DNA of 64,000 nt from Nannocystis bainbridge (GCF_028368995.1 NZ_JAQNDL010000003.1:1984001-2048000); one strand, 5' to 3'; numbered from the stretch's first letter, positions 1-61,281 are shown. Made by a program: numbers and translations. Notes: generated by a model from the sequence alone, not told the origin.

Positions 1-1124
1 CCGGCGACGTCGCGCAGCGGCAGCTGGCGCAGGCTGCGTTCGGCCAGCGGGCGGGTCGGCTCGCCCTCGAAATCGAGGATCGACCACGCCCCGGACTCCG
101 GATCGTAGAGCGTCTGGCCCAGGTGGTAATCGCCGTGGATCCGGATCTGCACCCCGGCCGCCGTGCGCAGGCGCTCCTCCGCGTCGGCCAGCAGCGCCTC
201 GCTGCGGGTCGCCACCACCTCCGCCAGCGCGCGCAGCTCCGGCTGCAGCCCGCGGTAGCGCTGGCCCAGGCGTCCGAGCGCCGCCGCGGCGGTCTGGCGC
301 AGGCCCACCACCCAGCGGGCCCGGTCGGCCTGCACGATCGCCCGCGTCGCCATCCCGCTCGCCTCGTCGTCGGTCGTCAGCGCCTCGTGCATCGCCCGCG
401 TCGCCGCCCCGAGCGCTCGCGCCGGGCCGGTCATGTCGGCGCAGGCGAGCGCGTGGGCCCAGCCGTCGACGCGCCCGGGCAAAAACCCGTGCAGCACCCC
501 GGCTGCGGCTGCGCCCTCGCCTGTGTCGACCGTCAGCTCGGCCAGCAGCGGCGGCGCGTGCGGGAAGCCGCGCGCGGTGAGGAAGCGGCCGAGCTCGAGC
601 TCCGGGTGGCGGCCGACCTCGATGCGGCGGAACAGCTTGAACACCCCGGCTTCGCCGAGCACCGCCGCGGTGTTGCTCTGCTCGCCGCCGATCAGCCGCA
701 CGCTCGTCGGCGCCGCCGCGTCCTTCAGGCCCGCCGACGCGCGCGCGGTCCAGCGCGCACTCTGACCTGCGAAGCTCGCGCCGTCGCGCAGGCCGGCCGC
801 GAGGGCCAGCAGCGCCTCGGGCGCGTCGCTGGCCTCCACCAATTCGACCCCGCCGCCGAGCTCGATGCTGCGCTTCGGGACATGTCCTTCAGGACCTGTC
901 CCTTCCGACATCTGCGCGCGCAGCAGCACCTGCGTGGTCCACGGCCGCTCGGCCTCGGCGGCCAGCAGGCACAGCGCCGCGTCTTCGCCGAGCTTGGCTG
1001 CGCCGACCAGCTTGACCGCGCGGGCGCCGGCGGGGAACCACCGGCGGCCGGCGAGGAAGCCCAGCCATGTCTCGGAGGACAGCCCGGCCAGGGCCGCCAG
1101 GTCGAGCGCCGGGCTGGCCGTCAC
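1..1124 (-). CDS. mak: Maltokinase (Mak/Pep2 family), 3' end runs off the window
   Basis: Not in the ORF track; translated by hand. GTG at 1124 overlaps the treS stop (GTGA). N-terminus has '[11 protein letters not shown]'; C-terminal part has the '[10 protein letters not shown]...ILDFEGEP...PLRDVA' kinase-like motifs of maltokinases. Lies directly downstream of treS. Confidence 0.85.
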
Positions 1125-2788
1125 GGGCCCTCCGGGGCCCGCTCGGGCGCTTGCAGCGAGAACCAGAAGAACGCGTGCGGCGACATCGTCAGCAGGTACG
1201 GCAGCTGGCCGATGCGGGGGAACGGCCGGTCGCTCCACAGCTCGACCGGGGTCCAGCCGTCGAGCGCCTGCAGGTCGAGCTCGGCGAACTGGGCGAAGCG
1301 CGACAGGTTGTGCACGCACAGCAGCAGCTCGTCGCCCATGCGGCGGAAGAACGCCAGGACCGCGCGGTTCTCCGGGTAGAGCGCCTCGAAGCTGCCGCCG
1401 CCGAACGCCTGGAAGCGCCGGCGCACGCGGACCAGCCGGCGCATCCAGCGGAGCAGCGACGTCCCGGTCCGCTCCTGCGCGTCGACGTTGATGTCCGAGA
1501 AGCTGTACGGCGGGTCGACCAACACCGGCGCGAACAGGGCCGCGCTGTCGGCCCGCGAGAACCCGGCGTTGCGGTCGGCGCTCCACTGCATCGGCGTGCG
1601 CACCCCGTTGCGGTCGCCGAGGAAGATGTTGTCGCCCATCCCGAGCTCGTCGCCGTAGTAGATGATCGGCGTGCCCGGCATCGCCATCAGCAGCGCGCTC
1701 ATCAGCTCGATCTGCCGCCGGCCGTTGTCCATCAGCGGCGCCAGCCGGCGGCGGATGCCGATGTTGATGCGCATCCGCGGGTCGCGGGCGTACTCGCGGT
1801 ACATGTAGTCGCGCTCCTCGTCGGTCACCATCTCGAGCGTCAGCTCGTCGTGGTTGCGGAGGAACATCGCCCACTGCGAGTTCTCGGGGATCGGGGGCGT
1901 GCGCGCCAGGATCTCGACGATCGGCGTGCGGTCCTCGCGGCGCAGCGCCATGTACATGCGCGGCATCAGCGGGAAGTGGAACGCCATGTGGCACTCCGGC
2001 TCGACGTCGGTGCCGAAGTACGGCAGCACGTCCTCGGGCCATTGATTGGCCTCGGCGAGGAACACCCGCCCGGGGAACTCGGCGTCGAGCGCGGCCCGCA
2101 TCTCTCGCAGCACCGCGTGGGTCTCCGGCAGGTTCTCGCAGCTGGTGCCCTCGCGCTCGCACAGGTACGGCACCGCGTCGAGGCGCAGGCCGTCGACCCC
2201 GAGCGCGAGCCAGAAGCGCATGACGTCGGTCAGCAGCTTGCGCACCGTCGGGTTGTCGAAGTTGAGGTCGGGCTGGTGGCTGAAGAAGCGGTGCCAGTAG
2301 AACTGGCCGGCCAGCGGGTCCCAGGCCCAGTTCGAGTTCTCGGTGTCGGTGAAGATGATGCGCGCCCCGGCGTAGCGGGTCGGGTCGTCGCTCCACACAT
2401 AGAGGTCGCGCTCGGGCGAGTCCTTGGGCGCCCGCCGAGCCCGCTGGAACCACGGGTGCTGGTCGGACGTGTGGTTGATGACGAGCTCGGTGATGACCTT
2501 GAGCCCGCGCAGGTGCGCCTCGGCGAGGAAGCGCTTGAAGTCCTCCATCGTCCCGTAGCGCGGGTTGATCGACTCGTAGTCGGCGATGTCGTAGCCGTCG
2601 TCCTTGAGCGGCGACGGGTAGAACGGCAGCAGCCACAGGCACGTCACCCCGAGCTCGGCCAAATAGTCGAGCTTGGCGGTCAGCCCCGGGAAGTCACCGT
2701 ATCCGTCGCCGTCGCTGTCGTGGAACGACTTGACGTGGAGCTGGTAGATGATCGCGTGCTTATACCAGAGCGGTTCGTTTTCGCTCAT
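1121..2788 (-). CDS. treS: Trehalose synthase / maltose alpha-D-glucosyltransferase (GH13)
   Basis: '[27 protein letters not shown]', '[11 protein letters not shown]', '[10 protein letters not shown]', '[18 protein letters not shown]', 'RTPMQWS'. The ATG at 2788 overlaps the glgE stop (ATGA). Confidence 0.96.
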
Positions 2789-4779
2789 GTGACCTCCACG
2801 TCGATGTAATTGCGCACCAGTCGGAACAGGTGCCCGGGTTGTGTCACGGGATCGAGGCGAACGTAGTTCCGGCTGCCTCTCCACTCGTAGCGCGCGCCGC
2901 TGACCAGGTCCTCGACGAGGTAGGGCTCGTCGGCGGCGATCCCGAGGGCCTCGAGGGGCACCTCGACCCACCCGTCCTGCTCCTGCGACCAGTCACAGTT
3001 GATCGTGACCAGCACGTCGCCGACTGGCCCCGGCGCGCGCTTGAGGTAGAAGAGGATGTTGGGGTTGTCGCAGGGGTAGAAGGTCAGGTTGTCGTAGCGC
3101 TGCAGCGCCGGGTGCTCGCGCCGCACACGGTTGAGCTGGGTGATCTCGGCGGCCAGGCTGCCGGCGACCGTGTAGTCGCGGTGGCGCAGCTCGTACTTCT
3201 CCGAGTCGAGGTACTCCTCCGAGCCGGCGCGCAGCGGCGTGTTCTCGCCGAGCTCGTAGCCGCTGTAGATGCCGTAGGTCGGCGCCAGCGTGGTCGCCAG
3301 CAGCAGGCGGATCCGGAACGCCGGCAGCCCGCCCCTCTGCAGGTGCTCGGGCAGGATGTCCGGCGTGTTGATGAAGAAGTTGCCGCGGTAGTACTCCTTC
3401 ATCGGCCCCTGCGTCAGCTCGGTGAAGTACTCCTTGAGCTCCTCGGCCGTCGTGCGCCACGTGAAGTACGTGTACGACTGCGTGAACCCGGCCTTGGCCA
3501 GCCAGCGCATGCGCTTGGGCCGGGTGAACGCCTCGGCCAGGAACAGCACGTCGGGGTGCTGCTGCTGGACCTCGGCGATCAGCCACTCCCAGAACGCCAG
3601 CGCCTTGGTGTGCGGGTTGTCGACGCGGAAGATCGTCACCCCGTGCGCGACCCAGAACAGGACGATGTCCTTGCACGCCTGCCACAGCGCCTCGCGGTCC
3701 TCGCACCAGAAATCCAGCGGGTAGATGTCCTGGTACTTCTTCGGCGGGTTCTCGGCGTACTTGATGGTGCCGTCGGGGCGGACGAAGAACCACTCGGGGT
3801 GCTCCTTCAGCCACGGGTGGTCGGGCGAGCACTGCAGCGCGTAGTCGAGGGCGATCTCGAGGCCGAGGCTCTTCGCCGTGCGGGCGAAGCGGTCCCACTC
3901 GGCCAGCGTGCCGAGCTCCGGCGCGACCGCGGTGTGACCCCCGGCCTCGCCGCCGATCGCCCACGGGCTGCCGACGTCGCCGGCCTCCGCGGTGAGGCTG
4001 TTGTTCTTGCCCTTGCGCGAGGCCAGGCCGATCGGGTGGATCGGCGGCAGGTAGACCACGTCGAAGCCCATCGCGGCGACGCGGTAGAGCGCCCGCTCGG
4101 CGTCGGCGAAGCGGCCGTGCACGCCCGGCTCGCCGCACGAGCGCGGGAAGAACTCGTACCAGCCGCCGAAGCGGGCCCGCGCGCGGTCGACCCGGACCGG
4201 GAACACCCGCGGGAACTCGGTGCGGTCGTCGGGTGCGAGGTGCAGCGCCATCAGCGCGCGCAGCTCCGCGTTCTGCGCCGTGACCGCTCGCTCGGCTGGC
4301 CCGCGCTCGGGGTCGCGTAATTCGTCGGCGAGCCGCATGAGCAAGCTCCGGTCGGCCTGGCCCGCGGCGCGCGCGGCGGCGTCCACCATCACCGCACCCT
4401 CGAGCAGCTCGGAGTGGATCGCCTGCCCGGCGGCGAACTTCTTCTCGAGCTCGACGCGCCAGGTCGTGAAGCGATCGGTCCACGCCTCGACGGCGAACGC
4501 CCACGCGCCGGTGCGGTCGAGCGCGATGCGAGCGAACCACCGGTCGCTGTCGTAATCGTAACGGAGCGGCGTGTGGTGCCACGCGCCATCAGGGCCGCAC
4601 CAGCGCACCTGCGCGGCCAGACGGTCGTGGCCGTCCTTGAAGATGTCGGCCTCGACCACCAGCGTGTCGCCGACGACGCGCTTGATCGCGTGACGACCGT
4701 CGTCGAGCGCCGGCGACACGGCCTCGATGATGATCCGTTCAGGGGTTCGGGATGGGGAGCGGACGGCGTTCGATGGCAC
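2785..4779 (-). CDS. glgE: Alpha-1,4-glucan:maltose-1-phosphate maltosyltransferase
   Basis: 'WYEFFPRS', 'YLPPIHPIG', 'GSPWAIG', 'QCSPDHPW', '[14 protein letters not shown]', 'FRVDNPHTK', 'FLAEAFT', 'NTPDILP'. Start uncertain; GTG at 4779 chosen because the ATG at 4836 overlaps the divergent gene's start. Confidence 0.95.
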
Positions 4780-4834: not shown

Positions 4835-6994
<2,160 letters not shown>

Positions 6995-7239
6995 GCCGCG
7001 CCGCGGCTGTCCGAAAGGACAGATTTTTCGCCGCCGAGGCATGAGATGGCCCCCGCGACATGTCTCCGGGGACATGTCCTCCCGCGCCGGCCCGCCGCTC
7101 CCGCCGCCCACCTCGGGGGCGCCGCGGGGGCCGACCCGCGGCCGGGAGGGCCGACGAGGCGCGAGGAGATCGCCCGCGACCCGACGTGCGCTGGATCGCC
7201 AGCCCGCCGCCGCTTCTTCTTAATGGAGAAAGACGGACA

Positions 7240-23955: not shown

Positions 23956-24163
23956 TCGCCCCCGCGCCGCCTCACCTGTCCTCGAGGCCATGTCGCTGCC
24001 GCGCAGCGCCATGGCCCCGGGGACATGTCCATTCGGACATCCTCGACATCTGCCCTGACAGCCCCTCCGGCGGTCCACCAGGTCCGCGCCAGGTCATGGA
24101 CCTGTCCCGAGGGACATCCCTGCCCCTGGCGCCCGCGCCGTCGACCGGCTTAAAATTATCGAC

Positions 24164-29473: not shown

Positions 29474-29720
29474 TCTTCATTGCCATCCCTCTACGATTCG
29501 CAGGACTGCTCGAGCGCAAGCACGGCCGTCGGCCTGCCGGCCTTGCCCGTCCTCGCATCGAGATCTATTCGAGACATGTCTCGAAAGACATGTCATGCTC
29601 CTCGCCTTGCGCGGTCCCCCGCGCGACGACACGACCTCGGAGCCATCCTTCGCATTCCGCCCCGCGAGAAAAACCGCACGACGGCAAGGTTGTCGACCCG
29701 GGTCCGGCGCGCTAGCGTGC

Positions 29721-34676: not shown

Positions 34677-34881
34677 GCCCGCGCTGCCGACATTCCCCGA
34701 GGGACATGCTCCATCGAGCATGTCCCTTCGATCATGTCCTGAATCCTGGGTCTCCGGCCCAGGAGGCGGTCGGACGACGCCGGCCCGCCGCAACGGCCGC
34801 GCTCGATGGTTCGCGGCCGCCTCGCCGTGAGCGACCGCCGCGCCGTTGCTCCGCCGCGCGGCCCGGCCCAGAGATCCGCGC

Positions 34882-37919: not shown

Positions 37920-40277
37920 TCAGCCGTCCTTCGTCCCGCCCTCGCCCTTGTCGTCGAGGAGGTGCGTCAGGGCGTGTCCGGAGGGCAAGATCGCCTCGCT
38001 CACCAGATCCAGCAGCGGCGGATCGTCGCTCGGCCTGGGCGCCGGGACCTCGGGCTTCACGACCTCGGGCGCGTCGGGCACGAACGTCACCGCGACCTCG
38101 AGCCCCGGCGACGCCTGTGGCTCCTCGAGCCGCGAAGGCTCCGTCGGCGTCGATTCAGTCACCTGAATCACCGGCGCCTCATCGCTCGCTCGCGAAGCCT
38201 CCGCCGCCCGCACGCCGGGCGACGATTCGCCCATCCGCGTCGGCAGCACCCCGGGCGCCTCCACCTTCGGTTCGAACGCCCGCGTCGGCAGCTCGCCCGG
38301 CGCCTCGACCTTCGGCGTCACCAGCGGCGCCACGTTCGACTCGTGCGTCACCGTCGTCCCGGCCGGCGCGCTGATGAACACGTGCCGCACCAGCTCCGGC
38401 GCCCCTGGCCCCGACCCGCGCAGCACCGTCCGCTCCGCGCTGCGCGGCGCTCCCGGCGGCGCGAACCTCGGCACCTCCGCCACCCGCCCCGAGCCCGACT
38501 CGCCCGGCAGCAGCGTGCGCGGGGCCAACAGCAGGTCTCCCGGCGTCCGCCCGCCCGACGGCATGTCGACCGCGAACAGCCCACGACGCCCGCTGCCCGA
38601 CTCGCCCGGCAGCAGCGTCGTCCCGCCTAGCACCGGCCCGTCCGGCACCACCGTCATGCCGGTCACCACCGGCCCCTCGGGCACCACCGTCATGCCGGTC
38701 ACCACCGGCCCCTCCGGCACCACCGGCTCCTCCGGCGGCAGCGTCTTGCCGTCCGGCCCCGTCCATGCATCGACCCGCTCGCCCGGCGACGACGGCGGCA
38801 CTGCCACCATTCGCTCGCCTTCGCCCGCCGGCAACCTCGTGACCTCCACCGGCGCCTCACTCGCTACGTCCGCCGCGCCGAGCACGGCGCCCGCGAGCAC
38901 GACCCCGCTCCCCGGCTTCACGCCGAGCACCTCGTCGACCGTCGGCGCCCGCGCCACCATCCGAGCCGGCCCCGCAGACATGTCCTTGCCGCCATGTCCC
39001 GAAGCACCGGTCCCGACGGACATGTCCTTCTCACCATGCCCCGAAGCACCCTTCCCTTCGGACATGTCCTCCGAGACATGCGCGTGCCCCAGCGGCGACA
39101 CCGCCACCCCGAACGCCACGCAGGTCGTCGCCACCGCCGCGAACACCAGCGTCACCAGCGACTCCGTGCCCGGCACCGCCGCCGCGTGGGGCAGCGCCGC
39201 CAGCCCGGCGACCAGCATCCCGCGCGGCCAGCCCAGCGCCAGGGCCGAGAACGTGCGCTCGTCGACCCCGCGCAGCACCAGCCGCGCCGCCAGCAGGCGC
39301 AGCACCACCAGCAGCAGCCCGAGCACGATCCCCATCGCCAGCAGCCCCCACGGCGGCCCCAGGTTCATGCCGAGGTACGTAAACAGCAGCACCCGCGTGA
39401 TCTCGACCGTGCGCGCGTGGTCGTCGAGCGCCGAGCGGAAATCTTCGTCGGCCGCCTCGACGATCGTTCCGCGCGGCCGGAACAGCGCCCCCACCAGCGG
39501 CCCCGCGTTGCTGACGACCGCGCCGAACACCAGCACCGCCAGCGCCCCGATCCCGCCGAGCGTGTCGGTCACCACGTACAGCGCCAGGATCGCCGCCAGC
39601 GTGTACGGATAGACCCCGCGGCCCGGGCCGACGCGGCGGATCGCCGTGATCCACAGCAGCCCGGCGAACGCCCCGAACGCCAGGCCCAGGCCGAAGCCGG
39701 CGGCGATCGCCGCGTACGCCTTGCCCACCGGCACGCGCAGGCTCAGCAGGTCGATGCAGAACGCCGTCGCCGCGATCGCCAGCGCCCCGGTCAGCGCCGC
39801 CTCGCGCTCGAGCGCCGCCACCAGGCCCGGGTGCGCCCGCCGGTACAGCGTCGGCGCGAACACCTCGGGCGCGGTGCACAGCATCAGCGCCCCGAGCATG
39901 AACGCGTGCGTCCAGCTCCACACCGGCAGCAGGTGCAGCCCCGACAGCGCCTGGCTGAACAGCGCCACCAGCGGCACCACCAGCGCCGCCCCGGCCAGCG
40001 CCAGCTTGCGCGCGCGCACGACCTGCTCGCTGGCTGCCCCGAAGACCATGTCGCGGCCGGCCTCGAACAGCACGATGATCACCGCGATCGCGGCGAAGAA
40101 CGGCGCCAGCGCGGCGATCGTCGCCGGCGGCACCAGCCCCGTGGCGCGCAGCACCACCCCGAGCACGATCAGCCACGCCGCCTCGGGCACGTTGGTGCGC
40201 AGCGCCAGCGGGCGCACCGCCGCCGCGGCGGCCAACAGACAGGCGATGGCGACGAGAAAGACGGTGACGGGCGCCAT
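37920..40277 (-). CDS. Cation:proton antiporter (NhaP/CPA1-like) with long low-complexity C-terminal tail
   Basis: About 12 hydrophobic segments, 'VPEAAWLIVLG', 'IIVLFEAG', 'PRGMLVAGLA'; then roughly 380 aa Pro/Gly/Glu-rich tail with internal repeats. Confidence 0.75.
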   Translation of the reverse strand: MAPVTVFLVAIACLLAAAAAVRPLALRTNVPEAAWLIVLGVVLRATGLVPPATIAALAPFFAAIAVIIVLFEAGRDMVFGAASEQVVRARKLALAGAALVVPLVALFSQALSGLHLLPVWSWTHAFMLGALMLCTAPEVFAPTLYRRAHPGLVAALEREAALTGALAIAATAFCIDLLSLRVPVGKAYAAIAAGFGLGLAFGAFAGLLWITAIRRVGPGRGVYPYTLAAILALYVVTDTLGGIGALAVLVFGAVVSNAGPLVGALFRPRGTIVEAADEDFRSALDDHARTVEITRVLLFTYLGMNLGPPWGLLAMGIVLGLLLVVLRLLAARLVLRGVDERTFSALALGWPRGMLVAGLAALPHAAAVPGTESLVTLVFAAVATTCVAFGVAVSPLGHAHVSEDMSEGKGASGHGEKDMSVGTGASGHGGKDMSAGPARMVARAPTVDEVLGVKPGSGVVLAGAVLGAADVASEAPVEVTRLPAGEGERMVAVPPSSPGERVDAWTGPDGKTLPPEEPVVPEGPVVTGMTVVPEGPVVTGMTVVPDGPVLGGTTLLPGESGSGRRGLFAVDMPSGGRTPGDLLLAPRTLLPGESGSGRVAEVPRFAPPGAPRSAERTVLRGSGPGAPELVRHVFISAPAGTTVTHESNVAPLVTPKVEAPGELPTRAFEPKVEAPGVLPTRMGESSPGVRAAEASRASDEAPVIQVTESTPTEPSRLEEPQASPGLEVAVTFVPDAPEVVKPEVPAPRPSDDPPLLDLVSEAILPSGHALTHLLDDKGEGGTKDG

Positions 40278-43675: not shown

Positions 43676-43676
43676 A

Positions 43677-43829
43677 GTGCATGTCCCTCGGGACATGTCT
43701 CGAAGTTCGCCGACCCCGTACATGACCTTCGGGACATGTCTCGCCGAAGCAGTCGGCTCGTGCATGACCTTCGGGACATGTCTCGCCGACCCGCGGCTTG
43801 TGCATGACCTTCGGGACGTGCCACGCCGA
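43677..43829. repeat. Tandem array of 4 units (about 30-nt core, period 40-42 nt) built on the GACATGTC element
   Basis: GT(G/A)CATGACCTTCGGGACATGTCTCGCCGA at 43718 and 43760, with variants at 43677 and 43800; linkers differ in sequence. Confidence 0.9.
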
Positions 43830-44059
43830 CGCCGAGCGCCGCCAGCGGGGGCCGGCCCGGCCCGGCGACGCACCTGAGCGACGGCCCGCCCGGGCTCGTC
43901 CTCCCGCGCGTGCGCCTCGGGATCGGCCCGGACAAGGGCCTCCCGCGCGGCGCGCGATCGCGCCGGGCCTGGACGCTCGCGGGACCCGTCGTCGCGCCCC
44001 GCCGCGAGCCCGCGCCGATGCGCGGAGGTCCGCCGCGGCCTCCGTGCGGATCCACGCCG

Positions 44060-44797: not shown

Positions 44798-44875
44798 TTC
44801 GCCTTCGCCGACGAGATGTCCGAGAGAACATGCCCATGCGGACATGTTCTTTCGGCCACACCACCGCGGCGCGCC

Positions 44876-45430: not shown

Positions 45431-45757
45431 CGGGATCGAGTAGCACGGCCCGTCGCGCCCGGTCGACGGAATCCGCCCGAAGACGCCGCGCGATCGCTCG
45501 CCCAGCGCGCTCGCTGCAGCGCTTCGCTCGCGCTGCGCGGCATCGCCAGGCCCTCGTCGCGCGGCCGCGCCGATTGACGCCGGTCGCAGGGTCGCCTCCC
45601 GCCGCGATGGAGGCTCAGTCCGGGCTTCCTTCTCGACTACGATAAGTCCCAGCCCGGACGCTCACCTCCGCTCATTTTCTGCGCGAATGAACCTTCGGAC
45701 ATGCCCTTCAAGGCATGTCCGAAGATTCATATCCATCTGTTCTTTCGGACACCCGCC

Positions 45758-48700: not shown

Positions 48701-50398
48701 CAGCATCACCAGCGCCGCCAGGCGATAGCCGCGGACCAGCGAGCGCAGCCAGCTCTCGGGCAGCGCCCGGTGCAGCGCCTCGCCCACCAGCACGAAGATC
48801 CACACCGACCGCGGCGCCATCCACTCGGGGAAGATCAGCGCCAGCGTCACCACCGCCAGCACCCCCCAGGCCCAGCCGTACAGCCTTGCGATCGCGATCG
48901 CGATCACCAGCACCATGAACAGATCCAGCAGCGTCCAGCGGCCGAGCCACGTGTCGTCCACCTGATCGACCCCGGTCGCGTGCAAGATCCGCCAACCTGG
49001 CGGCAGGTGCAGCGTCCCCGTCACCGACGCGAAATCGTGGTCCCAGTCGACCGCCGACACCGACGGGCGCAGCCCCCCCGCGGGCACGCGCAGGTCCGCC
49101 GCCAGCGACACGTTCGGGCTGCGCAGCTCGATCCCTGCCTTGTTCGGGTCTTCGCGCGCAGTGATGAATTGCGGCTGCCCGCCGACCGCCACCGCCCCGA
49201 GGCGGGCCGAGCCCTGCATCTCGAGCCGGCGTGTGCCCTGCACCTGGCCCTCGATGCGGTCCTTGACCGTGAACCCGCCGCCGTCGAAATCGAGCCACCA
49301 GTCGCGGGCCAGCGCCAGCTGATCGGGCCCGCGGTCGGCCTCGCCGCGCTGCGTCACCGTCAGCTGCAGCGCCTGCCCGGGGCGGGCGCGGAACGCCGGG
49401 AACGAGCGCCACGCGTCGGGCAGCTGCGTCTGTTGTGGGTCGACCGCGTCGAGCCCGGCGAACTCGACCCGCCGCAGCTCCGGCGTCGGCGCGAACACCC
49501 ACACCTCTTCGCTGGCCCACGGCCCCTCGTTGCTGGCGAGGGCGATGCTCTGCAGGTCACCCGGGTGGCGCGCCTCGATCCGGATCGTCCACGAGCCCGG
49601 GCGCACCTGCACGCGCACGCGGCCGTCGGGCTCGAGCCGGGCCGGCAGCTCGCTCGCCACCTCCATCGCCACGAAGTCCGGCGGCAGCGCCTTGCCCAGC
49701 AGCTCCTCGCGGCTCTTGCCCGCCACCTGCAGCGAGATCTCCGTCGTCAGCCGCAGCGGGATCGCGTCCGTCACCTTGCGGTGCACCACCACGTCGAGCA
49801 GGTTCTGCTCGCTCGCCGCCTCCACCTTCTTCTGCAGCCACAGCGTCCCGTCGTTGTCCCGGCGCGGGAGCGCCTCCGGCTTGCCGCGCAGCTTCAGCGC
49901 CAGCAGCCCCGTCTCGGCCGGCACGCTGAGCTTCTCCGGCATGCTGTCCCACAGGAACGCCCCGGTGATCCGGTGCGCGCCGGGGCCGAGCTCGACCACC
50001 GGCAGGCCGCCGCGGCTCATCACCACCGCCGCCTGCCCGTCGACCTCGACCTCTTGCGGCCAGCGGCGCGCGTCGCCGGGCAGCGGCACCATCCCCTTCG
50101 CGTAGAGCTGCCAGCGCTGGGTGAACGACCCGCGCTCGTCGGCCAGCTCGAGCTCGAGCTGCGACGGCCAGGCGCAGCGACGCTCGCTGGTGCTGGCATG
50201 TACGTACGGACATGACCGATCGGACAGGGGCTGCAGCACCCACGGGATCCACTCGCGCAGCGCCTCGGGGATGTCCGCCGGCGCCTGCGCGACCGGTTCG
50301 ACCGGGGCTCGTGGGGGCGCCGCCGCGGCCTCCGCCGCGAACAGCAGCATCATCAGCGCGAGGACCCAGTGCAGCTGCCGAGGCGTGGAGCGAGTCAT
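45758..50398 (-). CDS. Very large (about 1546 aa) uncharacterised multi-pass membrane protein
   Basis: Signal peptide at 'MTRSTPRQLHWVLALMMLLFAAEAAA'; two long extracytoplasmic beta-rich regions, each followed by TM bundles; Pro-rich tail. Confidence 0.8.
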   Translation of the reverse strand: MTRSTPRQLHWVLALMMLLFAAEAAAAPPRAPVEPVAQAPADIPEALREWIPWVLQPLSDRSCPYVHASTSERRCAWPSQLELELADERGSFTQRWQLYAKGMVPLPGDARRWPQEVEVDGQAAVVMSRGGLPVVELGPGAHRITGAFLWDSMPEKLSVPAETGLLALKLRGKPEALPRRDNDGTLWLQKKVEAASEQNLLDVVVHRKVTDAIPLRLTTEISLQVAGKSREELLGKALPPDFVAMEVASELPARLEPDGRVRVQVRPGSWTIRIEARHPGDLQSIALASNEGPWASEEVWVFAPTPELRRVEFAGLDAVDPQQTQLPDAWRSFPAFRARPGQALQLTVTQRGEADRGPDQLALARDWWLDFDGGGFTVKDRIEGQVQGTRRLEMQGSARLGAVAVGGQPQFITAREDPNKAGIELRSPNVSLAADLRVPAGGLRPSVSAVDWDHDFASVTGTLHLPPGWRILHATGVDQVDDTWLGRWTLLDLFMVLVIAIAIARLYGWAWGVLAVVTLALIFPEWMAPRSVWIFVLVGEALHRALPESWLRSLVRGYRLAALVMLAGICSVFAIQQLRQGLYPALEQRGRDNFDLALATGQLGPAVMAEEMPPATFAPGSLDQKANDLETEGGKAYGGEEGRMGRAKLAEKLDEDEEQSVSSSWGASGASLSGDYRRRQQKKLREYDASTVVQTGPGVPRWSWHSVPLRWSGPVERAQQVSFVLVPPHVNLALAGVRVLFLVALVLAVFGVFRKRRQAPPQRPNSAIGSTVMMTLAALLLPTTATAAEVPDAATLEQLRARLTEPPSCLPDCVTSPRMRLEASGSALRLVVELHAAAQVEAPLPGSAEHWLPSQVSVDGSPATGGLMRTSDGGLRLALEPGRHEVVLEGPLPNRETIQLRLPLGPHRVTARAEGWSVAGLHEDGLADEVLQLTRTSKQDAAQAETLEVGTLPPFVRVERALTLGLSWEVTTRVVRATPRGSAVVLKVPLLPGESVTTAEQRVEAGAVLVNIRPDEDVVEWTSVLPISPQIVLAAATGAPWSEVWEVMVGPVWHVEAGGIPPTRRGAEGLQVWTPWPGEQVVLDISRPAGVPGETLTLDFARLTLRPGMRAVDAELQLELRSSRGGHHTLALPADAQLQKVLINGAQQPIGQEGQQVRVPVAPGVQRVQLEWREAATLGQRYTAPVVDLGAAAVNAEVHVEFPPSRWILLLGGPRLGPAVLFWSYIVVLLIGSAVLARLSVSPLRGHQWFLLGLGLSTVSVPEAMLVIGWFLLLGWRRRRVDLTPGWFALRQLTIAGWTLLAGSALIAAVHAGLLGQPDMQIEGNGSYASSLRWYQDRVEYVEGVGGLMPRPWVLSVSLWWYRGLMLAWALWLAWSLIRWLPWGWQSAAQGGLWRPLWRPTPPRPVPPPPASRNSGPVPAQAAIHQTMVVPRAAQSGVSEAIFMSQSTDSGGLVHEDTTPRPRASRFRMTDTMEAPPPPLEAELDAPRSPTVARTNASGPQPVRPVAEAITPPTPGRPRPAPPPPPPGKRPLPPITSDQDDDTPPP

Positions 50399-50503: not shown

Positions 50504-50944
50504 GTGTCTTCGCCCACCGACTCCGAGCTGGCCGAGATCCTCGCGCGTGCGCGCACCATCGCCGTGCTCGGCGCGCACACCGACCCCAACAAGCCCGCGT
50601 GCTACGTCCCGGACTACCTGCACGCCGCCGGGTACACCGTCTTGCCGGTCAACCCCGTGTTCGCCGGCCGGCGCATGTGGGGCTCGACCTTCGTCGCCGC
50701 CCTGACCGACCTCTCGCTCGCGCCCGGCCAGCTCGACATGGTCGACGTGTTCCGCCGGCCCGAGTACCTCCAGGGCCACCTCCCGGAGATCTTGGCCGTG
50801 AAGCCCCGCGTCGTCTGGCTGCAGCTCGGCATCCGCCACGCCGAATTCGCGCGCACCCTCCGCGAGGCCGACATCGAAGTCGTCGAAGATCGCTGCGCCC
50901 TCGCCGAGCACCGCCGCCTCGGCCTCCCGAACCTCGGCGACTGA
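50504..50944 (+). CDS. CoA-binding protein (YccU family)
   Basis: 'ARTIAVLGA', 'YL..GYTVLPVNP', 'DMVDVFRRP', 'VVWLQLGI', 'VEDRC'. Confidence 0.9.
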   Translation: MSSPTDSELAEILARARTIAVLGAHTDPNKPACYVPDYLHAAGYTVLPVNPVFAGRRMWGSTFVAALTDLSLAPGQLDMVDVFRRPEYLQGHLPEILAVKPRVVWLQLGIRHAEFARTLREADIEVVEDRCALAEHRRLGLPNLGD

Positions 50945-51001
50945 CCGCGAAGTCCGCGCAGCGGCCCGGCCCGCGCGGTGCCCCGCCGCCAGTGCGTGGG
51001 G

Positions 51002-51057
51002 GACATGCCCTTTACGACATGCCCTTTACGACATGCCCTCGACGACATGTCCCTTCG
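51002..51057. repeat. Direct tandem of four 14-bp units GACATG(C/T)CC-N5
   Basis: GACATG at 51002, 51016, 51030, 51044, between two convergent genes. Confidence 0.9.
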
Positions 51058-51152
51058 ACCCGGCGCCCCAAACGAAGACACGCCGGCGAGCTCCCTCGCC
51101 GGCGTGTCGCCGTACAGTCGGCTCGCGGCGTGCTGCCGCGAGCCGCGTTCGT

Positions 51153-52541
51153 TCACGCGATCATCGCGTCGATGACGCCCGGCTCGAGCTCCGGGTCGCC
51201 GAAGTCTTCGACCAGCTCGCCGGTGACGGCGCTGAGGATCGTGTTGTGGAACTGGTTGTGCGTCACCCCGCCGGCGTCGATGTACTGGCCGGTCTTGAGG
51301 TAGCCGCCGCAGCTGCCGGCGCACACCCACGGGATGTTGTTGTACGTGTGGCTGACGCCGGCGCCGAGGTCGTTACACCAGATCGCCACCGTATCGTCGA
51401 GCAGCGTGCCGACGTCGGTCTGCAGCGCCGACAGGCGGTCGAGCAGGTGCTTGAACAGCTTGCCGTGCTCGCGGTCGATCACGTGGTGCTTCGACTGCGC
51501 GTCGGGGATCGGGTCGCCCTCCGAGCCGTCGGCGTAGATGCGGTGCGAGATCTGGTGGAACCGCGGCAGCTGGACCCCGTCGATCCAGTACTGCGTGCCG
51601 TCGTTGCCGTCGCCGATCTGCAGCGTCGCCGCGCGCGTGTAGTCGCACGAGAACGCGAACGCGATCAGGTTCATCTGCAGGCGCGTCACCGTCTGGATCA
51701 GCTCGTCGGCGCCGTTGTAGTCCTGCTGCGCCTCCATCTCCATGATCTCGGCGTCGCTGGGCAGCTCGCACAGCAGCTCGACCTCGAGGTCGCGGATCGC
51801 GTCGAAGTGGATCTGCAGGCGGTCGTGGTCGGCCTTGCTCATGTCTTGCTTGCTCATGAGCGCCTGCATCTGCTCGCGGACCAGGTCGTTGACGCTGGTG
51901 CGGCGGGCCTTGATCTTCATCGCCACTTCTTGCGGCAGCGCCGTGATGCCGACGATCTTGGTGTACACGCTCCACGGGTTGCGGTCGGCCGCGCGCAGGT
52001 CCTTGGCCCCGCGGTAGCTGAGCACCTCGTTGATGTAGCCGGCCATGCGGCCCGCGTAGAGCGTCAGCGGGTCGGGGTTCGAGGCCGGGTTGAGCTCGCG
52101 GGCGATGCGGTTGTCGACCGACTCGCCCATCGACAGCGACAGGTTGCCCTTCGGGTCGTCGGACACGCGGGCCGCCGTGAGGCACTGGTTGCCGCCGCCG
52201 GAGTGGCCGCAGCCGTTGCCCGGGAAGCCGAAGCGGGTGCCGCGGACCAGCAGCAGCTTGTCGGCGTAGTCGGCGAGCTCGTTGACGGCCCGCTCGGCGT
52301 CGATCGTCGACAGGCTCTCGGTCGTGACCGGGCCGAGCGCCGACGGCCAGAAGCGTTCGGGCTCGTCGCCGTCCTTCTGGGCGCAGCCGTTGGCCTGGCG
52401 GACGTACACGCAGTAGCGCGGGCGCTCGGTGGCCGCCTTGGCGTTGCGGGGCAGCAGGCTCGGGAGGAACGGCAACGCGACGGTGGCGCCGCCGATGCCG
52501 GTGATGAAGGCGCGTCGGGACAGGTTGCTGGGAAGTCGCAT
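51153..52541 (-). CDS. DUF1552 domain protein (Tat-exported)
   Basis: Tat motif 'SRRAFI...VALPFLPSL', 'SVDNRIA', 'HFDAIRDLE', 'AFSCDYTRAAT', 'TLLDDT', 'H...NIPW'. Confidence 0.88.
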   Translation of the reverse strand: MRLPSNLSRRAFITGIGGATVALPFLPSLLPRNAKAATERPRYCVYVRQANGCAQKDGDEPERFWPSALGPVTTESLSTIDAERAVNELADYADKLLLVRGTRFGFPGNGCGHSGGGNQCLTAARVSDDPKGNLSLSMGESVDNRIARELNPASNPDPLTLYAGRMAGYINEVLSYRGAKDLRAADRNPWSVYTKIVGITALPQEVAMKIKARRTSVNDLVREQMQALMSKQDMSKADHDRLQIHFDAIRDLEVELLCELPSDAEIMEMEAQQDYNGADELIQTVTRLQMNLIAFAFSCDYTRAATLQIGDGNDGTQYWIDGVQLPRFHQISHRIYADGSEGDPIPDAQSKHHVIDREHGKLFKHLLDRLSALQTDVGTLLDDTVAIWCNDLGAGVSHTYNNIPWVCAGSCGGYLKTGQYIDAGGVTHNQFHNTILSAVTGELVEDFGDPELEPGVIDAMIA

Positions 52542-58732: not shown

Positions 58733-61075
58733 ATGTCCCGCTCTCGTGCTTTCTTGTTGAAGCTCGTCGCTCCCCTCTGTCTGTCCGCCGTCGGCCTCTT
58801 GGCCTGCGGCGACAGCAGCAGCAGCTCCAATTCCAACAGCGCCTCGAACTCCGGCACAGGCACCGACGTGACCTCCGGAGGCATGACCGAGCCGACGGCG
58901 GGCAGCGTGAGCATGTCGGCCAGCGAGGCCACCGACGGCACCGCGGGCATCTCGGACTCGAACTCGGGCGTGCCGACGACCAGCGGCATGGGCATCTCGG
59001 ACTCGAACTCGAGCGACACGATGACCGAGGACACGACCACCGGCATCGGCGGCGGCGGCTGCGGCGACAACGTGCTCGACCCGGGCGAGGAATGTGACAG
59101 CGGCGCGAACAACGGCGGCGGCAACGAGTGCAAGCTCGGCTGCATGCTCAACTTCTGCGGCGACACGTATATCGGCCCGGGAGAAGAGTGTGACAACGGG
59201 GCCGAAAACGGCGACATGAACTCGTGCAAGCCCGACTGCAAGAAGGCCTTCTGCGGCGACGGCAAGGTCGGCCCCGGCGAGGGCTGCGACGACGGCAACC
59301 AGAACAACGCCGACACCTGCACCAACACCTGCGCGCTGGCCTCGTGCGGCGACGGCATCATCTCCGCCCAGGAGCAGTGCGACGACGGCAACCAGAGCAA
59401 CGAAGACGAGTGCACCAACAACTGCACCGCCGCCAAGTGCGGCGACAACTTCGTCCAGAACCCCGAGCAGTGCGACGAGGGCCCCGACAACGCCAACACA
59501 GGCGACTGCACGCTCATGTGCAAGCTGGCGGTGTGCGGCGACGGTGAGCTCCACAACACCGGCAGCGGCAACGAGGAGTGCGACCTCGGGGCGGGCAACG
59601 GCCCGGGCCAGCAGTGCAACGCCCAGTGCAAGACCAACACCTGCGGCGACGGCGACAAGAGCCCGACCGAGCAGTGTGACGACGGCAACAACCAGGGCGG
59701 CGACGGCTGCACCTCGCTGTGCAAGCTCGAGGAGTGCGGCAACAACGTCATCGACCCGGGCGAGCAGTGCGACGACGGCAAGAACGGCAACCAGGACGAC
59801 GGCTGCACCGACGCCTGCGCCCTGCCGAAGTGCGGCGACGCGCTCGTCCAGCCGAGCCTCGACGAGCAGTGCGACCTCGGCCCCGGCAACAACAACTCCG
59901 GCGCCTGCACCCTGGTGTGCACCGCGGCCAAGTGCGGCGACGGCCTCATCTGGCAGAACCACGAGGAGTGCGACGACGGCGTCAACAACTCCAACACCGG
60001 CACCTGCAAGGCCAACTGCACCAAACAGTTCTGCGGCGACGGCTTCGTCGGCCCCGGCGAGGCCTGCGACGACGGCAACCAGAACAACAATGACGGCTGC
60101 ACCAACGTGTGCAAGATGGCCAAGTGCGGCGACGGCTTCATCCAGCCGGGCGAGCAGTGCGACAACGGCGGCCTCAACAGCAACAACGGCACCTGCACCA
60201 CCGCCTGCCTGACCCCCAAGTGCGGCGACGGCTACATCCAGGCCAGCAACAACGAGACCTGCGACGACGGCGTCAACAACGGCGACAGCAAGGCGTGCCT
60301 CTCGACCTGCGTCCCGGCCAAGTGCGGCGACGGCAAGACCCAGGTCGGCGTGGAGGAGTGCGACGACGGCAACAACGTCAACACCGACCTCTGCACCAAC
60401 ACGTGCAAGGCCGCCAAGTGCGGCGACGGCATCACCCAGCCGAACGCCGGCGAGACCTGCGACGACGGCAACAACGACAACACCGACCTCTGCACCAACT
60501 TCTGCGTGCCCGCCAAGTGCGGCGACGGCTACAAGCAGCCGCAGAACCAGGAGCAGTGCGACGACGGCAACAACGACAACACCGACGCCTGCAGCAACGC
60601 CTGCAAGACCCCCACCTGCGGCGACAGCATCGTCCAGCCGGGCGCGCCGTTCAACGAGCAGTGCGACAACGGGGCCAACAACGCCAACGACAAGGCGTGC
60701 AACGCCACCTGCAAGAAGACCACCTGCGGCGACGGCACCAAGCAGACCCCCAACGGCAACGGCCAGAACGAGATCTGCGACGACGGCAACCAGTCGAACG
60801 CCGACGCCTGCACCAACACCTGCGCCAAGACGGTCTGCGGCGACGGCATCACCCAGAACCCCAACGGCAACGGCCAGGCCGAGACGTGCGACGACGCCGA
60901 CCAGTCGAACGCCGACGAGTGCAACACGTCGTGCAAGAAGACCACCTGCGGCGACGGCATCATTCAGAACGACCCCAAGAACGGCGACGGCGTGACCGAG
61001 ATGTGCGACCAGGGCGCGCAGAACGGCACCCAGGGCTCGTTCTGCTCCGCCACCTGCCAGATCAAGCCGGCCTGA
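58733..61075 (+). CDS. Myxobacterial cysteine-rich repeat (DUF4215) lipoprotein
   Basis: Lipobox 'LLACG', S/T linker, then 20 counted repeats of CG(D/N)...E.CD(D)GN...C...C. Confidence 0.92.
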   Translation: MSRSRAFLLKLVAPLCLSAVGLLACGDSSSSSNSNSASNSGTGTDVTSGGMTEPTAGSVSMSASEATDGTAGISDSNSGVPTTSGMGISDSNSSDTMTEDTTTGIGGGGCGDNVLDPGEECDSGANNGGGNECKLGCMLNFCGDTYIGPGEECDNGAENGDMNSCKPDCKKAFCGDGKVGPGEGCDDGNQNNADTCTNTCALASCGDGIISAQEQCDDGNQSNEDECTNNCTAAKCGDNFVQNPEQCDEGPDNANTGDCTLMCKLAVCGDGELHNTGSGNEECDLGAGNGPGQQCNAQCKTNTCGDGDKSPTEQCDDGNNQGGDGCTSLCKLEECGNNVIDPGEQCDDGKNGNQDDGCTDACALPKCGDALVQPSLDEQCDLGPGNNNSGACTLVCTAAKCGDGLIWQNHEECDDGVNNSNTGTCKANCTKQFCGDGFVGPGEACDDGNQNNNDGCTNVCKMAKCGDGFIQPGEQCDNGGLNSNNGTCTTACLTPKCGDGYIQASNNETCDDGVNNGDSKACLSTCVPAKCGDGKTQVGVEECDDGNNVNTDLCTNTCKAAKCGDGITQPNAGETCDDGNNDNTDLCTNFCVPAKCGDGYKQPQNQEQCDDGNNDNTDACSNACKTPTCGDSIVQPGAPFNEQCDNGANNANDKACNATCKKTTCGDGTKQTPNGNGQNEICDDGNQSNADACTNTCAKTVCGDGITQNPNGNGQAETCDDADQSNADECNTSCKKTTCGDGIIQNDPKNGDGVTEMCDQGAQNGTQGSFCSATCQIKPA

Positions 61076-61124
61076 CCCGGACCTGAGCCCGGCCCCCGCG
61101 CCGGACCCCACGCGCGCCGCGAGC

Positions 61125-61281
61125 GACATGTCCCCAAGGACATCCGCTCGCGGCGCGCCGCGTTGTCGACATGTCCCGAAGGTCAGCCGCTCGCGGCGCG
61201 CCACGTCTCCATGGACATGTCCCGAAGGTCAGCCTATCGCGACGCGCAACGACTCCATGGACATGTCCCGGAGGCCATGTC
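61125..61281. repeat. Tandem array of 4 units (period 43-46 nt) built on the GACATGTC element
   Basis: GACATGTC at 61125, 61168, 61214, 61260; core GACATGTCCCGAAGGTCAGCC in units 2 and 3. Confidence 0.9.

What the first reader, a model, noticed from the sequence alone, without database searches (positions are those of the whole stretch)
879..61281. Window-wide palindrome GACATGTC phased at exactly 14 bp: candidate undescribed chromosome-wide protein-binding or REP-like system
Seen: at least 20 exact GACATGTC copies in 64 kb, against about 0.4 expected from base composition if GC is about 72% (my rough estimate). Almost every copy has one to three degenerate partners exactly 14 bp away (8-mer + 6 nt). 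Examples: gacatgtc-tccggg-gacatgtc (7057), gacatgtc-tcgaaa-gacatgtc (29573), gagatgtc-cgagag-aacatgcc-catgcg-gacatgtt (44813), gacatgct-ccatcg-agcatgtc-ccttcg-atcatgtc (34703), gacatgtc-cttcag-gacctgtc-ccttcc-gacatctg (879). About 35 loci were found, with a strong bias to the first 100 nt after stop codons (6994, 19569, 21140, 23955, 29473, 33085, 34676, 43675, 44797, 45758, 50944, 61075). None was seen in the lower-GC islet at 10.6-12.8 kb. Spacers are often CTTCGG, CCGAAG or CGAAAG, which would give UUCG/GNRA-type tetraloops. Inference: either (a) sites for a cooperative dimeric DNA-binding protein such as a nucleoid or chromosome-organising factor, favoured by phasing that persists where base-pairing is broken, or (b) a REP/HIP-like hairpin family acting on mRNA 3' ends. 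I recognise no named element with this structure and see no RAYT transposase or obvious cognate protein in the window.
Basis: partly seen in the sequence, partly recalled or inferred. Interest (0 to 1): 0.85.

Follow-up and report, generated by a model that had tools for sequence, protein, structure and literature searches.

The report
Genus-wide 14-bp phased palindrome arrays
This myxobacterial genome carries thousands of short inverted repeats chained at an exact 14-base step just after genes; the family appears undescribed, resembles REP elements, and its recognising factor is unknown.

Summary
GACATGTC occurs 20 times in the window against 0.82 expected and 2237 times in the 11.05 Mb genome. 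Motif positions autocorrelate sharply at 14, 28, 42, 56 and 70 bp, and hardly at all at 13 or 15.

The basic element is the dyad TGTCC-N4-GGACA: 1987 exact copies, against 2-16 at other spacings. Chained head to tail, it gives GGACATGTCC junctions. I count 2825 arrays, 0.93% of the genome.

Arrays concentrate at gene 3' ends. Density per Mb is 2297 in convergent, 860 in tandem, 374 in divergent and 85 in coding DNA.

The family is found in all sampled Nannocystis genomes and is nearly absent elsewhere in the family and phylum.

There is no RAYT, no PadR, no Rfam match and no master copy.

- Best reading, 0.45: a REP-like stem-loop family acting in 3' UTRs. It is supported by a context-specific excess of G:U-type variants.
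- Strong rival, 0.33: arrays of operator-like sites for an unidentified dimeric DNA-binding protein.

The mechanism is unresolved. Verdict: new variant of a known kind.

The parts
879..914 (.). array of 3 units. My crude gene call places it in coding DNA, but a 1-nt indel against the sister species suggests it is intergenic
6406..6427 (.). 2-unit array inside the trehalose-synthase-like gene, conserved in sister genome G007
7006..7028 (+). CTGTCC-GAAA-GGACAG box followed by a T run, 12 nt after the stop at 6994: a box in a canonical terminator-like setting
   Evidence: sequence read directly
7043..7078 (.). array of 3 units, two of them exact, 49 nt after the stop at 6994. Absent from the orthologous G007 spacer
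16472..16493 (.). 2-unit array at the junction of two overlapping + strand genes
19593..19614 (.). 2-unit array 24 nt after the stop at 19569
19676..19697 (.). 2-unit array; RNA fold -9.4 kcal/mol, z -2.8
21302..21323 (.). 2-unit array after the stop at 21140. A single exact unit lies at 21199
23973..24029 (.). two 2-unit arrays (23973-23994 and 24008-24029) starting 18 nt after the stop at 23955
24099..24120 (.). 2-unit array upstream of the AraC-type gene
29573..29594 (.). 2 exact units, 100 nt after the stop at 29473; RNA fold -12.7 kcal/mol, z -3.6
34688..34740 (.). 4 degenerate units that my array rule misses. The two middle units carry doubly compensated changes and fold into a 14-bp stem (-28.5 kcal/mol, z -4.3)
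38966..39082 (.). units in a 42-bp (14-codon) tandem repeat inside a 785-aa ORF with no Pfam match
43677..43830 (.). about 3.8 tandem copies of a 40-42-bp block, each holding one box, starting 3 nt after the stop at 43675. Absent from the G007 ortholog
44813..44848 (.). 3-unit array 16 nt after the stop at 44797; compensated 13-bp stem, -22.1 kcal/mol, z -4.8
45698..45719 (.). 2-unit array 39 nt after the stop of the - strand gene (45758); perfect 13-bp stem, -24.8 kcal/mol, z -8.9. The spacer is fully different in G007
50195..50216 (.). 2-unit array near the called 5' end of the 1546-aa gene
51002..51051 (.). 4-unit array in a convergent spacer, upstream of a separate GC-rich hairpin. Four sister genomes keep 1.5-2 units at the same place with different spacers
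61112..61281 (.). 43-46-bp tandem blocks, each with one unit or box, plus 2-unit arrays at 61200 and 61260, starting 50 nt after the stop at 61075

Best explanation
This is a genus-specific, REP-like family of very small inverted repeats in Nannocystis (Myxococcota).

The unit is the 14-nt dyad TGTCC-N4-GGACA. Units are chained head to tail with no gap. That chaining produces both the GGACATGTCC junction palindrome and the exact 14-bp phase.

Shown: arrays sit just downstream of stop codons. Inferred: they are transcribed as part of 3' UTRs and fold there into stem-loops of 5 to more than 13 bp. Also inferred: these stem-loops act like REP elements, as barriers to 3' exonucleases and/or attenuators of read-through between neighbouring and convergent genes.

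Arrays grow, shrink and are replaced in whole 14-bp units, which keeps the phase.

The arm sequence is uniform, the spacing is strict and the spacers are free. Together these imply a sequence-specific factor that recognises the dyad. That factor is not identified and is the weakest link in this reading.
For: - Scale and geometry. There are 1987 exact TGTCC-N4-GGACA, against 2-16 at N2, N3 and N5-N8. I count 2825 arrays and 7332 units, 0.93% of the genome.
- Location, by my GC3-based gene calls. Arrays per Mb: convergent 2297, tandem 860, divergent 374, coding 85. In tandem spacers the median distance is 70 nt from the upstream stop and 210 nt from the next start.
- Few competing hairpins. 470 of 555 array-bearing tandem spacers have no other perfect GC-rich hairpin of 8 bp or more.
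- RNA-level signal. Variants that keep G:U pairing in the sense strand exceed their mirror variants only near 3' ends. The share is 0.559 (95% 0.534-0.585) in 723 arrays nearer the upstream stop, and 0.540 (0.518-0.563) in 595 convergent arrays. It is 0.498 nearer the downstream start, 0.499 in divergent spacers and 0.502 in coding DNA. Flanking 3' DNA shows no such skew: G/C 0.95, T/A 1.08.
- Folding. Six of eight window loci fold significantly better than shuffles, and some have doubly compensated stems that run past the units. Complementarity beyond the units is weakly but significantly above shuffles.
- Evolution. Of 12 orthologous spacers with units in this genome, 10 also have units in sister genome G007; of 16 without units, 2 do. 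In 14 aligned arrays, core positions 4-7 changed at 0.06-0.12 per site and spacer positions at 0.26-0.47, against 0.157 in neighbouring intergenic DNA.
- Restriction to the genus, as is typical of REP families.
Against: - No RAYT/Y1 transposase: PF01797, 0 hits.
- No master copy. 4370 distinct 24-mers occur among 4507 adjacent unit pairs, and the commonest occurs 5 times. This is unlike REPIN populations.
- Conserved arms with free, strand-symmetric 4-nt spacers are the usual signature of a dimeric protein site on duplex DNA rather than of an RNA hairpin.
- No sense-strand preference for stable tetraloops: TTCG 30 against CGAA 29.
- No U tract after arrays: 35 of 658 against 27 in the mirror image.
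- The outer halves of a box do not co-occur (odds ratio 1.00; 1.14 in isolated boxes). Each tracks the neighbouring box instead (odds ratios 2.3 and 2.5).
- The pair next to the exact box is often unpairable: C/T 371 and A/G 319 of 1987.
- Array sizes fall smoothly with no even/odd effect.
- Two of eight window arrays fold no better than shuffles.
- The G:U excess is modest, about 55:45.
- Gene calls are crude (7636 genes, about 80% coding), and the orthology sample is small.
Confidence: 0.45

Rival explanations
1. Operator-like arrays on duplex DNA. An abundant, unidentified dimeric DNA-binding protein reads the half-sites TGTCC and GGACA across a 4-bp spacer. Dimers pack side by side every 14 bp (3 dimers per 42 bp, about 4 helical turns) and coat gene ends. 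There they could act as roadblock terminators, insulators or nucleoid organisers. Arrays persist only where a bound filament does not block promoters or coding regions.
For: - The arms are conserved, the spacing is strictly N4 (1987 against at most 16) and the spacers are free.
- Spacers are about 50% A+T in a 71.5% G+C genome and strand-symmetric, Y at the first position and R at the last.
- Each outer half-unit tracks the next box, not its would-be stem partner.
- Array sizes show no even/odd preference.
- There is an excess at lag 42 (605 against 736 at lag 28), mostly intergenic.
- The dyad equals the canonical PadR motif ATGT-N8-ACAT (passages of PMC10295242, PMC3506622 and PMC5050560).
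- Three units in the same 14-bp register sit next to PadR-like reading frames in 5 Actinomycetota loci. Two of the five were tested by Pfam and are PadR: E 1.9e-14 and 4.5e-12.
- Rhodobacteraceae genomes hold 25-39 such pairs with A+T-rich spacers.
- The same arm sequence recurring in three phyla is hard to explain by RNA folding.
Against: - No cognate protein was found. PF03551 (PadR) gives 0 hits in this genome and in G001, although both are array-rich. PadR is patchy in the genus, in 4 of 10 other genomes.
- There is no homologue of the actinobacterial or the sister-species PadR: best E 1.63 and 0.12.
- PF13601 gives 0 hits.
- PadR genes of sister genomes are preceded by GATATATC-type repeats, not by this motif.
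- A 3'-end bias is unusual for transcription-factor sites.
- The excess of sense-strand G:U-type variants near stops and the compensated long stems are not expected for duplex recognition.
Confidence: 0.33
2. By-product of mutation. A self-complementary 14-bp minisatellite arises by slippage and template switching at palindromes. It is merely tolerated in 3' spacers and has no trans-acting factor or function.
For: - Tandem duplications are visible at several scales (14, 40-46 and about 60 bp) around the units.
- Units are gained and lost between sister species.
- The distribution matches the places where insertions are least harmful.
Against: - Adjacent spacers are identical in only 69 of 1682 cases, so most units are not recent copies of their neighbours.
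- Cores change more slowly than the surrounding intergenic DNA while spacers change faster.
- Arrays persist at orthologous sites in 10 of 12 spacers.
- The same arms are kept across all Nannocystis genomes sampled.
- Near-absence at N3 and N5 spacings needs more than drift.
Confidence: 0.1
3. Uptake-signal-like sequence. The motif is kept abundant by biased DNA uptake and recombination, as with neisserial DUS, which often sit as inverted pairs in terminators.
For: - A motif of about 10 nt makes up about 1% of the genome. It is genus-specific, evenly spread along the contigs, has no master copy and no transposase.
- No array lies in the lower-GC stretch of the window.
Against: - The unit is a dyad with strictly N4 spacing, not an oriented single motif.
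- 3922 of 7160 CATGTCC arms have a partner after N4 (chance 1.4%). Most of the remainder can be accounted for by array ends plus the composition background of about 1044.
- Exact 14-bp chaining has no precedent in DUS or USS that I know of (recalled).
- Competence and uptake bias in Nannocystis were not examined.
Confidence: 0.07

Closest known systems
REP / BIME / REPIN elements with RAYT transposases (Enterobacteria, Pseudomonas, Stenotrophomonas)
   Same: Short extragenic palindromes in hundreds to thousands of copies. They are lineage-specific, clustered at fixed spacing, concentrated at gene 3' ends and between convergent genes, able to fold, and they turn over between relatives. The REPIN and RAYT definitions come from the abstracts listed.
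   Different: - The unit is only 14 nt, with 10 specified bases.
- Units abut with no gap in an exact 14-bp register.
- No RAYT is present.
- There is no master sequence: 4370 distinct 24-mers among 4507 pairs.
- Spacers are essentially random.
PadR-family operators (ATGT-N8-ACAT)
   Same: The box ATGTCC-N4-GGACAT is an instance of the published PadR dyad. Chains of three units with the same 14-bp step lie next to PadR genes in Actinomycetota.
   Different: - This genome has thousands of sites at 3' ends rather than a few in promoters.
- This genome and G001 have no PadR gene.
- PadR genes in the genus carry a different upstream repeat.
Neisserial DNA uptake sequences paired in terminators
   Same: A short genus-specific word at about 1% of the genome, mostly intergenic, often just after stop codons as inverted pairs, and with no transposase (for DUS; here).
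   Different: DUS act as single oriented 10-12-mers with variable pair spacing. Here the dyad with exact N4 spacing is the unit, and unpaired arms show little excess once array ends are allowed for. Uptake was not tested.
Intrinsic (Rho-independent) terminators
   Same: Stem-loops right after stop codons. One box in the window (7006-7028) is followed by a T run.
   Different: Genome-wide there is no U tract after arrays (35 of 658 against 27 mirrored). The stem sequence is shared genome-wide, and the arrays are strand-symmetric.
Iteron or heptad arrays bound by small centromere-binding proteins, such as the pMF1 ParB iterons with motif AGATGTCT
   Same: Short imperfect palindromic units chained in exact register and bound by a small protein in a myxobacterial plasmid (passages of PMC3235114). 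The ATGTC core is similar.
   Different: The period is 8 bp, not 14. The iterons are confined to a plasmid, not chromosome-wide.

Membership tests
REP/REPIN-RAYT system | High-copy extragenic palindromic repeats biased to gene 3' ends and convergent spacers | tested here: met
   2825 arrays. Density per Mb: convergent 2297, tandem 860, divergent 374, coding 85.
REP/REPIN-RAYT system | A RAYT (Y1/HUH transposase, PF01797) encoded in the genome | tested here: not met
   0 hits at E<=0.01; 3 candidates were scored. The control search rings in 6 of 14 reference genomes. The 20 genes most strongly flanked by arrays are ordinary housekeeping genes.
REP/REPIN-RAYT system | A population of near-identical copies around a master sequence | tested here: not met
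   4370 distinct 24-mers among 4507 adjacent unit pairs. The commonest occurs 5 times, and the commonest 14-nt box 54 times.
PadR operator | Dyad ATGT-N8-ACAT | tested here: met
   3100 boxes match ATGTCC-N4-GGACAT with at most 1 mismatch, against 9-26 at other spacings. The motif is taken from passages of PMC10295242 and PMC3506622.
PadR operator | A cognate PadR-family protein present wherever the sites are | tested here: not met
   PF03551 gives 0 hits in G000 and in G001. Best E against two PadR queries is 1.63 and 0.12.
PadR operator | Sites located in promoter or divergent regions of regulated genes | tested here: not met
   Divergent spacers have 6-fold lower density than convergent ones. 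Arrays lie nearer to the upstream stop.
DNA uptake sequences (DUS/USS) | A single oriented motif that is abundant on its own | tested here: not met
   55% of 7160 CATGTCC arms have the N4 partner (chance 1.4%). The remainder is roughly what array ends plus the composition background would give.
DNA uptake sequences (DUS/USS) | Sequence-biased DNA uptake | not testable with these tools
   Needs a transformation or uptake assay.
Intrinsic terminator | GC-rich hairpin followed by a U tract on the sense strand | tested here: not met
   35 of 658 oriented arrays have at least 4 T in the 8 nt downstream, against 27 in the mirror image.
Any Rfam RNA family | Match to a curated covariance model | tested here: not met
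   0 matches at gathering score over the whole window. 0 matches at E<=1 over 43600-51200.

The most novel reading that the evidence does not exclude
The arrays are the landing platform of an unknown, abundant, sequence-specific dimeric DNA-binding protein. It polymerises in a 14-bp register and marks most gene ends: a chromosome-wide 'gene-end coat' that insulates or terminates transcription. It uses the dyad geometry known from PadR operators without a PadR protein. Parallel smaller expansions occur in Rhodobacteraceae.
Probability: 0.3. Interest if true: 0.85.

Novelty: new variant of a known kind. Interest (0 to 1): 0.66.

Why it matters
About 1% of an 11 Mb genome is given over to one 14-nt dyad placed after thousands of genes, conserved in position across species and restricted to one genus.

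If the stem-loop reading is right, Nannocystis has a REP-like system with no RAYT and no master copy. That raises the question of how such a family is generated and kept uniform.

If the protein reading is right, it would be a previously unknown way of marking gene ends.

Either way the arrays are practical markers of transcription-unit ends, and sources of instability, in a genus mined for natural products. The same chained dyad in Rhodobacteraceae and at PadR promoters gives comparative handles for finding the recognising factor.

Tried and rejected
- RNA evidence: no RNA holder was listed for window 42000-51999. I did not use read laying, because contigs cannot show 3' ends.
- Earlier notes of this scan: four look-ups gave nothing.
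- RAYT, PadR and HTH_34: no hits in this genome.
- Looking for a gene bracketed by arrays, as RAYTs are bracketed by REPs: 281 of 7636 genes are flanked on both sides. I scanned the 20 most strongly flanked against Pfam. They are ordinary: xanthine-dehydrogenase-like, UvrA-like, Pol III subunit, ABC transporter, kinases. Three have no family.
- Rfam: nothing.
- Tetraloop selection: rejected.
- A control (complementarity of outer halves after excluding cases where both match the consensus) was biased. One search replaces it.
- The odds ratio of 3.5 for compensatory G3/C8' in high-quality unit pairs may be confounded by array membership. In isolated boxes that pair shows no excess (z -1.0). I therefore give it little weight.
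- A whole-genome k-mer census for master words timed out. A count over arrays only replaces it.
- Orthology. Flank-anchored placement placed only 9 of 94 arrays. BLAST alignment covered 14 of 94. Gene-end anchors gave 28 spacer pairs out of 263. The 400 kb fetched from G007 is only partly syntenic.
- Literature. Searches for Sorangium or Nannocystis with repeat, palindrome or intergenic terms, and for the arm words with myxobacteria, gave no description of this family. I saw the search listings only, apart from PMC3235114, which I read in passages.

Full report
OBSERVATION

GACATGTC occurs 20 times in the window. The mean of 100 dinucleotide-preserving shuffles is 0.82 and the largest is 4. 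The window is G000:C2:1984001-2048000. The assembly has 11,048,555 bases in 5 contigs, with 71.2-72.0% G+C per contig.

Genome-wide the 8-mer occurs 2237 times. The true core is longer. GGACATGT is 10.5-fold over an order-3 Markov expectation: 3947 against 378, both strands. The order-6 expectation already absorbs the excess (4474 against 4414), because all sub-words are enriched.

Distances between exact copies peak at 14 (223), 28 (75), 42 (69) and 56 (38). No other distance up to 200 exceeds 12. With at most 1 mismatch the counts at lags 14, 28, 42, 56, 70 and 84 are 1759, 736, 605, 286, 109 and 57. Lags 13 and 15 give 8 and 13.

ANATOMY

I chained sites with at most 2 mismatches in exact 14-bp phase, requiring at least one site with at most 1 mismatch. 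This gives 2825 arrays. Their sizes are 2 units (1900), 3 (493), 4 (219), 5 (127), 6 (65), 7 (17), 8 (3) and 9 (1). 1535 of the 2237 exact copies lie in arrays. The arrays hold 7332 units, 102,648 bases, 0.93% of the genome.

The basic element is not the palindrome but the dyad across the spacer. TGTCC-N4-GGACA occurs 1987 times, against 8, 16, 5, 3, 2 and 2 times at N2, N3, N5, N6, N7 and N8. The reverse arrangement GGACA-Nx-TGTCC occurs 10-19 times at N2-N8 and 956 times at N0, which is the junction GGACATGTCC. The box ATGTCC-N4-GGACAT with at most 1 mismatch occurs 3100 times, against 9-26 at other spacings. The array is thus a gapless head-to-tail chain of a 14-nt inverted repeat, and that explains the exact phase.

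Spacers are diverse. The commonest tetramers, CGAA (85) and TTCG (70), are each about 3% of 2445. Spacers are about 50% A+T and strand-symmetric, with Y first and R last. Adjacent internal spacers are identical in only 69 of 1682 cases.

There is no master copy. 4370 distinct 24-mers occur among 4507 adjacent unit pairs, and the commonest occurs 5 times.

WHERE THE ARRAYS LIE

I used my own crude GC3-based gene calls: 7636 genes, about 80% coding. This is a caveat for everything that follows.

- Arrays per Mb are 2297 in convergent, 860 in tandem, 374 in divergent and 85 in coding DNA.
- Strong arrays occur in 28.2% of 1377 convergent, 11.7% of 4031 tandem and 7.7% of 1389 divergent spacers.
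- In tandem spacers the median distance is 70 nt from the upstream stop and 210 nt from the next start.
- 571 arrays lie deep inside called genes.
- Arrays are spread along all contigs. They are sparser in the second half of C5.
- In the window, 15 of 21 arrays are intergenic by these calls, and the neighbouring genes are ordinary chromosomal genes.

TAXONOMIC SPREAD

Record titles from a scan of one genome per species place the family in Nannocystis. The pattern was three exact units in phase, and the scan returned 40 loci:
- 12 in Nannocystis species;
- 10 in one Nannocystaceae MAG;
- 9 in Rhodobacteraceae;
- 6 in Actinomycetota;
- 3 elsewhere.

Four CATG in phase occur 869 times in this genome. 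They occur 409-527 times in the five other large genomes of the genus and 1-13 times in its five smaller, fragmented genomes. In the other 62 genomes of the family, four have 22, 10, 2 and 1 matches and 58 have none. The reversed control pattern gave 0 everywhere. A double box was found in 0 of 400 other genomes sampled from the phylum, against 16 in this genome.

EVOLUTION

The convergent spacer at 50944-51152 keeps 1.5-2 units at the same place, next to a separate GC-rich hairpin, in four sister genomes. The spacers and unit numbers differ between them.

I compared 28 orthologous spacers with the closest sister genome, G007. 12 have units in this genome, and 10 of those 12 also have units in G007. 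Of the 16 without units, 2 have units in G007.

In the 14 arrays that could be aligned:
- core positions 4-7 differ at 0.06-0.12 per site;
- positions 3 and 8 differ at 0.18;
- spacer positions differ at 0.26-0.47;
- neighbouring intergenic DNA differs at 0.157.

I read this as purifying pressure on the arms, together with turnover of whole units. The sample is small, and register shifts in the alignments could inflate the spacer rate. Local tandem duplications of 14, 40-46 and about 60 bp surround the units.

RNA OR SINGLE-STRAND HAIRPIN VERSUS DUPLEX PROTEIN SITE

For pairing:

1. Variants that keep a G:U pair in the sense strand (A3>G, C9>T, C10>T and so on) outnumber their mirror variants only where a 3' UTR is expected. 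The share is 0.559 (0.534-0.585) for 723 arrays nearer the upstream stop and 0.540 (0.518-0.563) for 595 convergent arrays. It is 0.498, 0.499 and 0.502 for arrays nearer a downstream start, in divergent spacers and in coding DNA (first seen as 827 G:T against 530 A:C). Flanking 3' DNA has G/C 0.95 and T/A 1.08, so a general mutational skew does not explain the excess.
2. Six of eight window loci fold better than shuffles (z -2.8 to -8.9). Some have doubly compensated stems that extend past the units. Two do not fold better (z -1.85 and -0.36).
3. Complementarity beyond the units is slightly above shuffles (z 2-7).

Against pairing and for a duplex site:

- The outer halves of a box do not co-occur (odds ratio 1.00; 1.14 in 1244 isolated boxes). 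Each tracks the adjacent box instead (2.26 and 2.52).
- The pair flanking the exact box is A/T 652, C/G 413, C/T 371 and A/G 319.
- Array sizes show no even/odd effect.
- There is no sense preference among tetraloops.
- There is no U tract and the flanks are mirror-symmetric.
- The pattern of conserved arms, fixed spacing and free spacer is the classic footprint of a dimer on duplex DNA. This last point is an inference from general knowledge.

The compensatory odds ratios (3.5 outer, 1.5 inner, 0.33 within a unit) may be confounded by array membership. In isolated boxes the same outer pair shows no excess.

THE PADR LEAD

GACATGTC-N6-GACATGTC contains ATGT-N8-ACAT. Papers I read in passages call this the canonical PadR dyad (PMC10295242, PMC3506622, PMC5050560).

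In five Actinomycetota loci, three units in the same register lie between a PadR-like reading frame and a second ORF. I scanned two of the five PadR-like frames against Pfam. Both are PF03551, with E 1.9e-14 and 4.5e-12. I recognised the second ORF from memory as carotenoid-oxygenase-like and did not test it.

This genome has no PF03551 hit. It has no homologue of that PadR (E 1.63) or of the sister-species PadR (E 0.12), and no PF13601 hit. In the genus, PadR is found in 4 of 10 other genomes and is also missing from array-rich G001. Where PadR is present, its upstream region carries GATATATC-type repeats instead of this motif.

The arrays therefore share the geometry of a PadR operator but are not a PadR regulon.

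OTHER FAMILIES CONSIDERED

- REP/REPIN-RAYT. The location, copy number and lineage restriction fit. The RAYT is absent and there is no master sequence. The definitions come from the abstracts listed.
- Uptake sequences. DUS often form inverted pairs in terminators and are mostly intergenic (PMC2397512 passages). Here the dyad, not a single oriented word, is the unit.
- Rfam: no match.
- pMF1 iterons. Chains of AGATGTCT are bound by a small ParB in a Myxococcus plasmid (PMC3235114 passages). This is an analogy only.

VERDICT

The finding is a real, very strong, genus-wide feature that I could not find described. I commit to a REP-like family of 3'-end stem-loops chained in a 14-nt register, recognised or generated by an unidentified factor (0.45). 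A duplex-DNA protein array is a close rival (0.33). A functionless minisatellite (0.10) and an uptake-signal-like word (0.07) are minor rivals.

Shown: the motif, the geometry, the scale, the location, the taxonomic range, the turnover, and the absence of RAYT, PadR and a master copy.

Inferred: transcription of the arrays, folding in vivo, any effect on mRNA, and the existence of a factor.

I saw no supplementary files.

Noticed in passing
L006, L008, L024, L028, L030, L032, L035, L036, L039 (Rhodobacteraceae loci); genomes G089, G090, G092: Sulfitobacter and Roseovarius genomes carry 25-39 pairs of TGACATGTCA units in the same 14-bp register. Their spacers are conserved and A+T-rich (AAATAT/AAATTT), and the flanks are not conserved: a smaller, independent expansion of the same dyad in another phylum.
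   Followed up: partly
L009, L013, L014, L020, L041 (Actinomycetota loci), positions about 301-336: Three TGACATGTCA units at 14-bp spacing lie between a PadR-like frame and a divergent ORF. Two of the five PadR-like frames were confirmed by Pfam. I read the divergent ORF from memory as carotenoid-oxygenase-like. This looks like a classical two-dimer operator.
   Followed up: partly
window 7006-7028 and 21141-21160: A related hairpin type, CTGTCC-N4-GGACAG, sits directly after stop codons. It has the same 5-bp arms but a different outer pair. The one at 7006-7028 is followed by a T run, like a canonical terminator.
   Followed up: partly
window 38631-39082 (- strand ORF 37920-40277): A 785-aa ORF with no Pfam match holds 36-bp and 42-bp tandem repeats. 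The 42-bp repeat carries the motif units in frame, 14 codons per three units.
   Followed up: no
window 58754-61075: A 773-aa protein made of about 93-111-bp tandem Cys-rich repeats (Pfam DUF4215, E 6e-65).
   Followed up: no
window 10547-12858: A stretch of lower G+C (about 67%) in which my calls find only one 61-codon ORF and no arrays. It may be foreign or non-coding DNA.
   Followed up: no
G000 contig C5, second half (about 360-720 kb): Array density drops to 0-8 per 36 kb, against 11-22 in the first part of the contig. This may be an acquired or plasmid-like region.
   Followed up: no
L080 (G007), L081 (G005), L083 (G061), just upstream of the PadR ORFs: PadR genes of sister genomes are preceded by GATATATC-type direct or inverted repeats, probably their own operators. 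These differ from the genome-wide motif.
   Followed up: partly
G000:C2, about 50.9-49.5 kb upstream of the window start: This genome has an insertion of about 190 nt, absent in G007, made of about 60-nt tandem blocks that each contain a motif unit. It shows recent local expansion.
   Followed up: no
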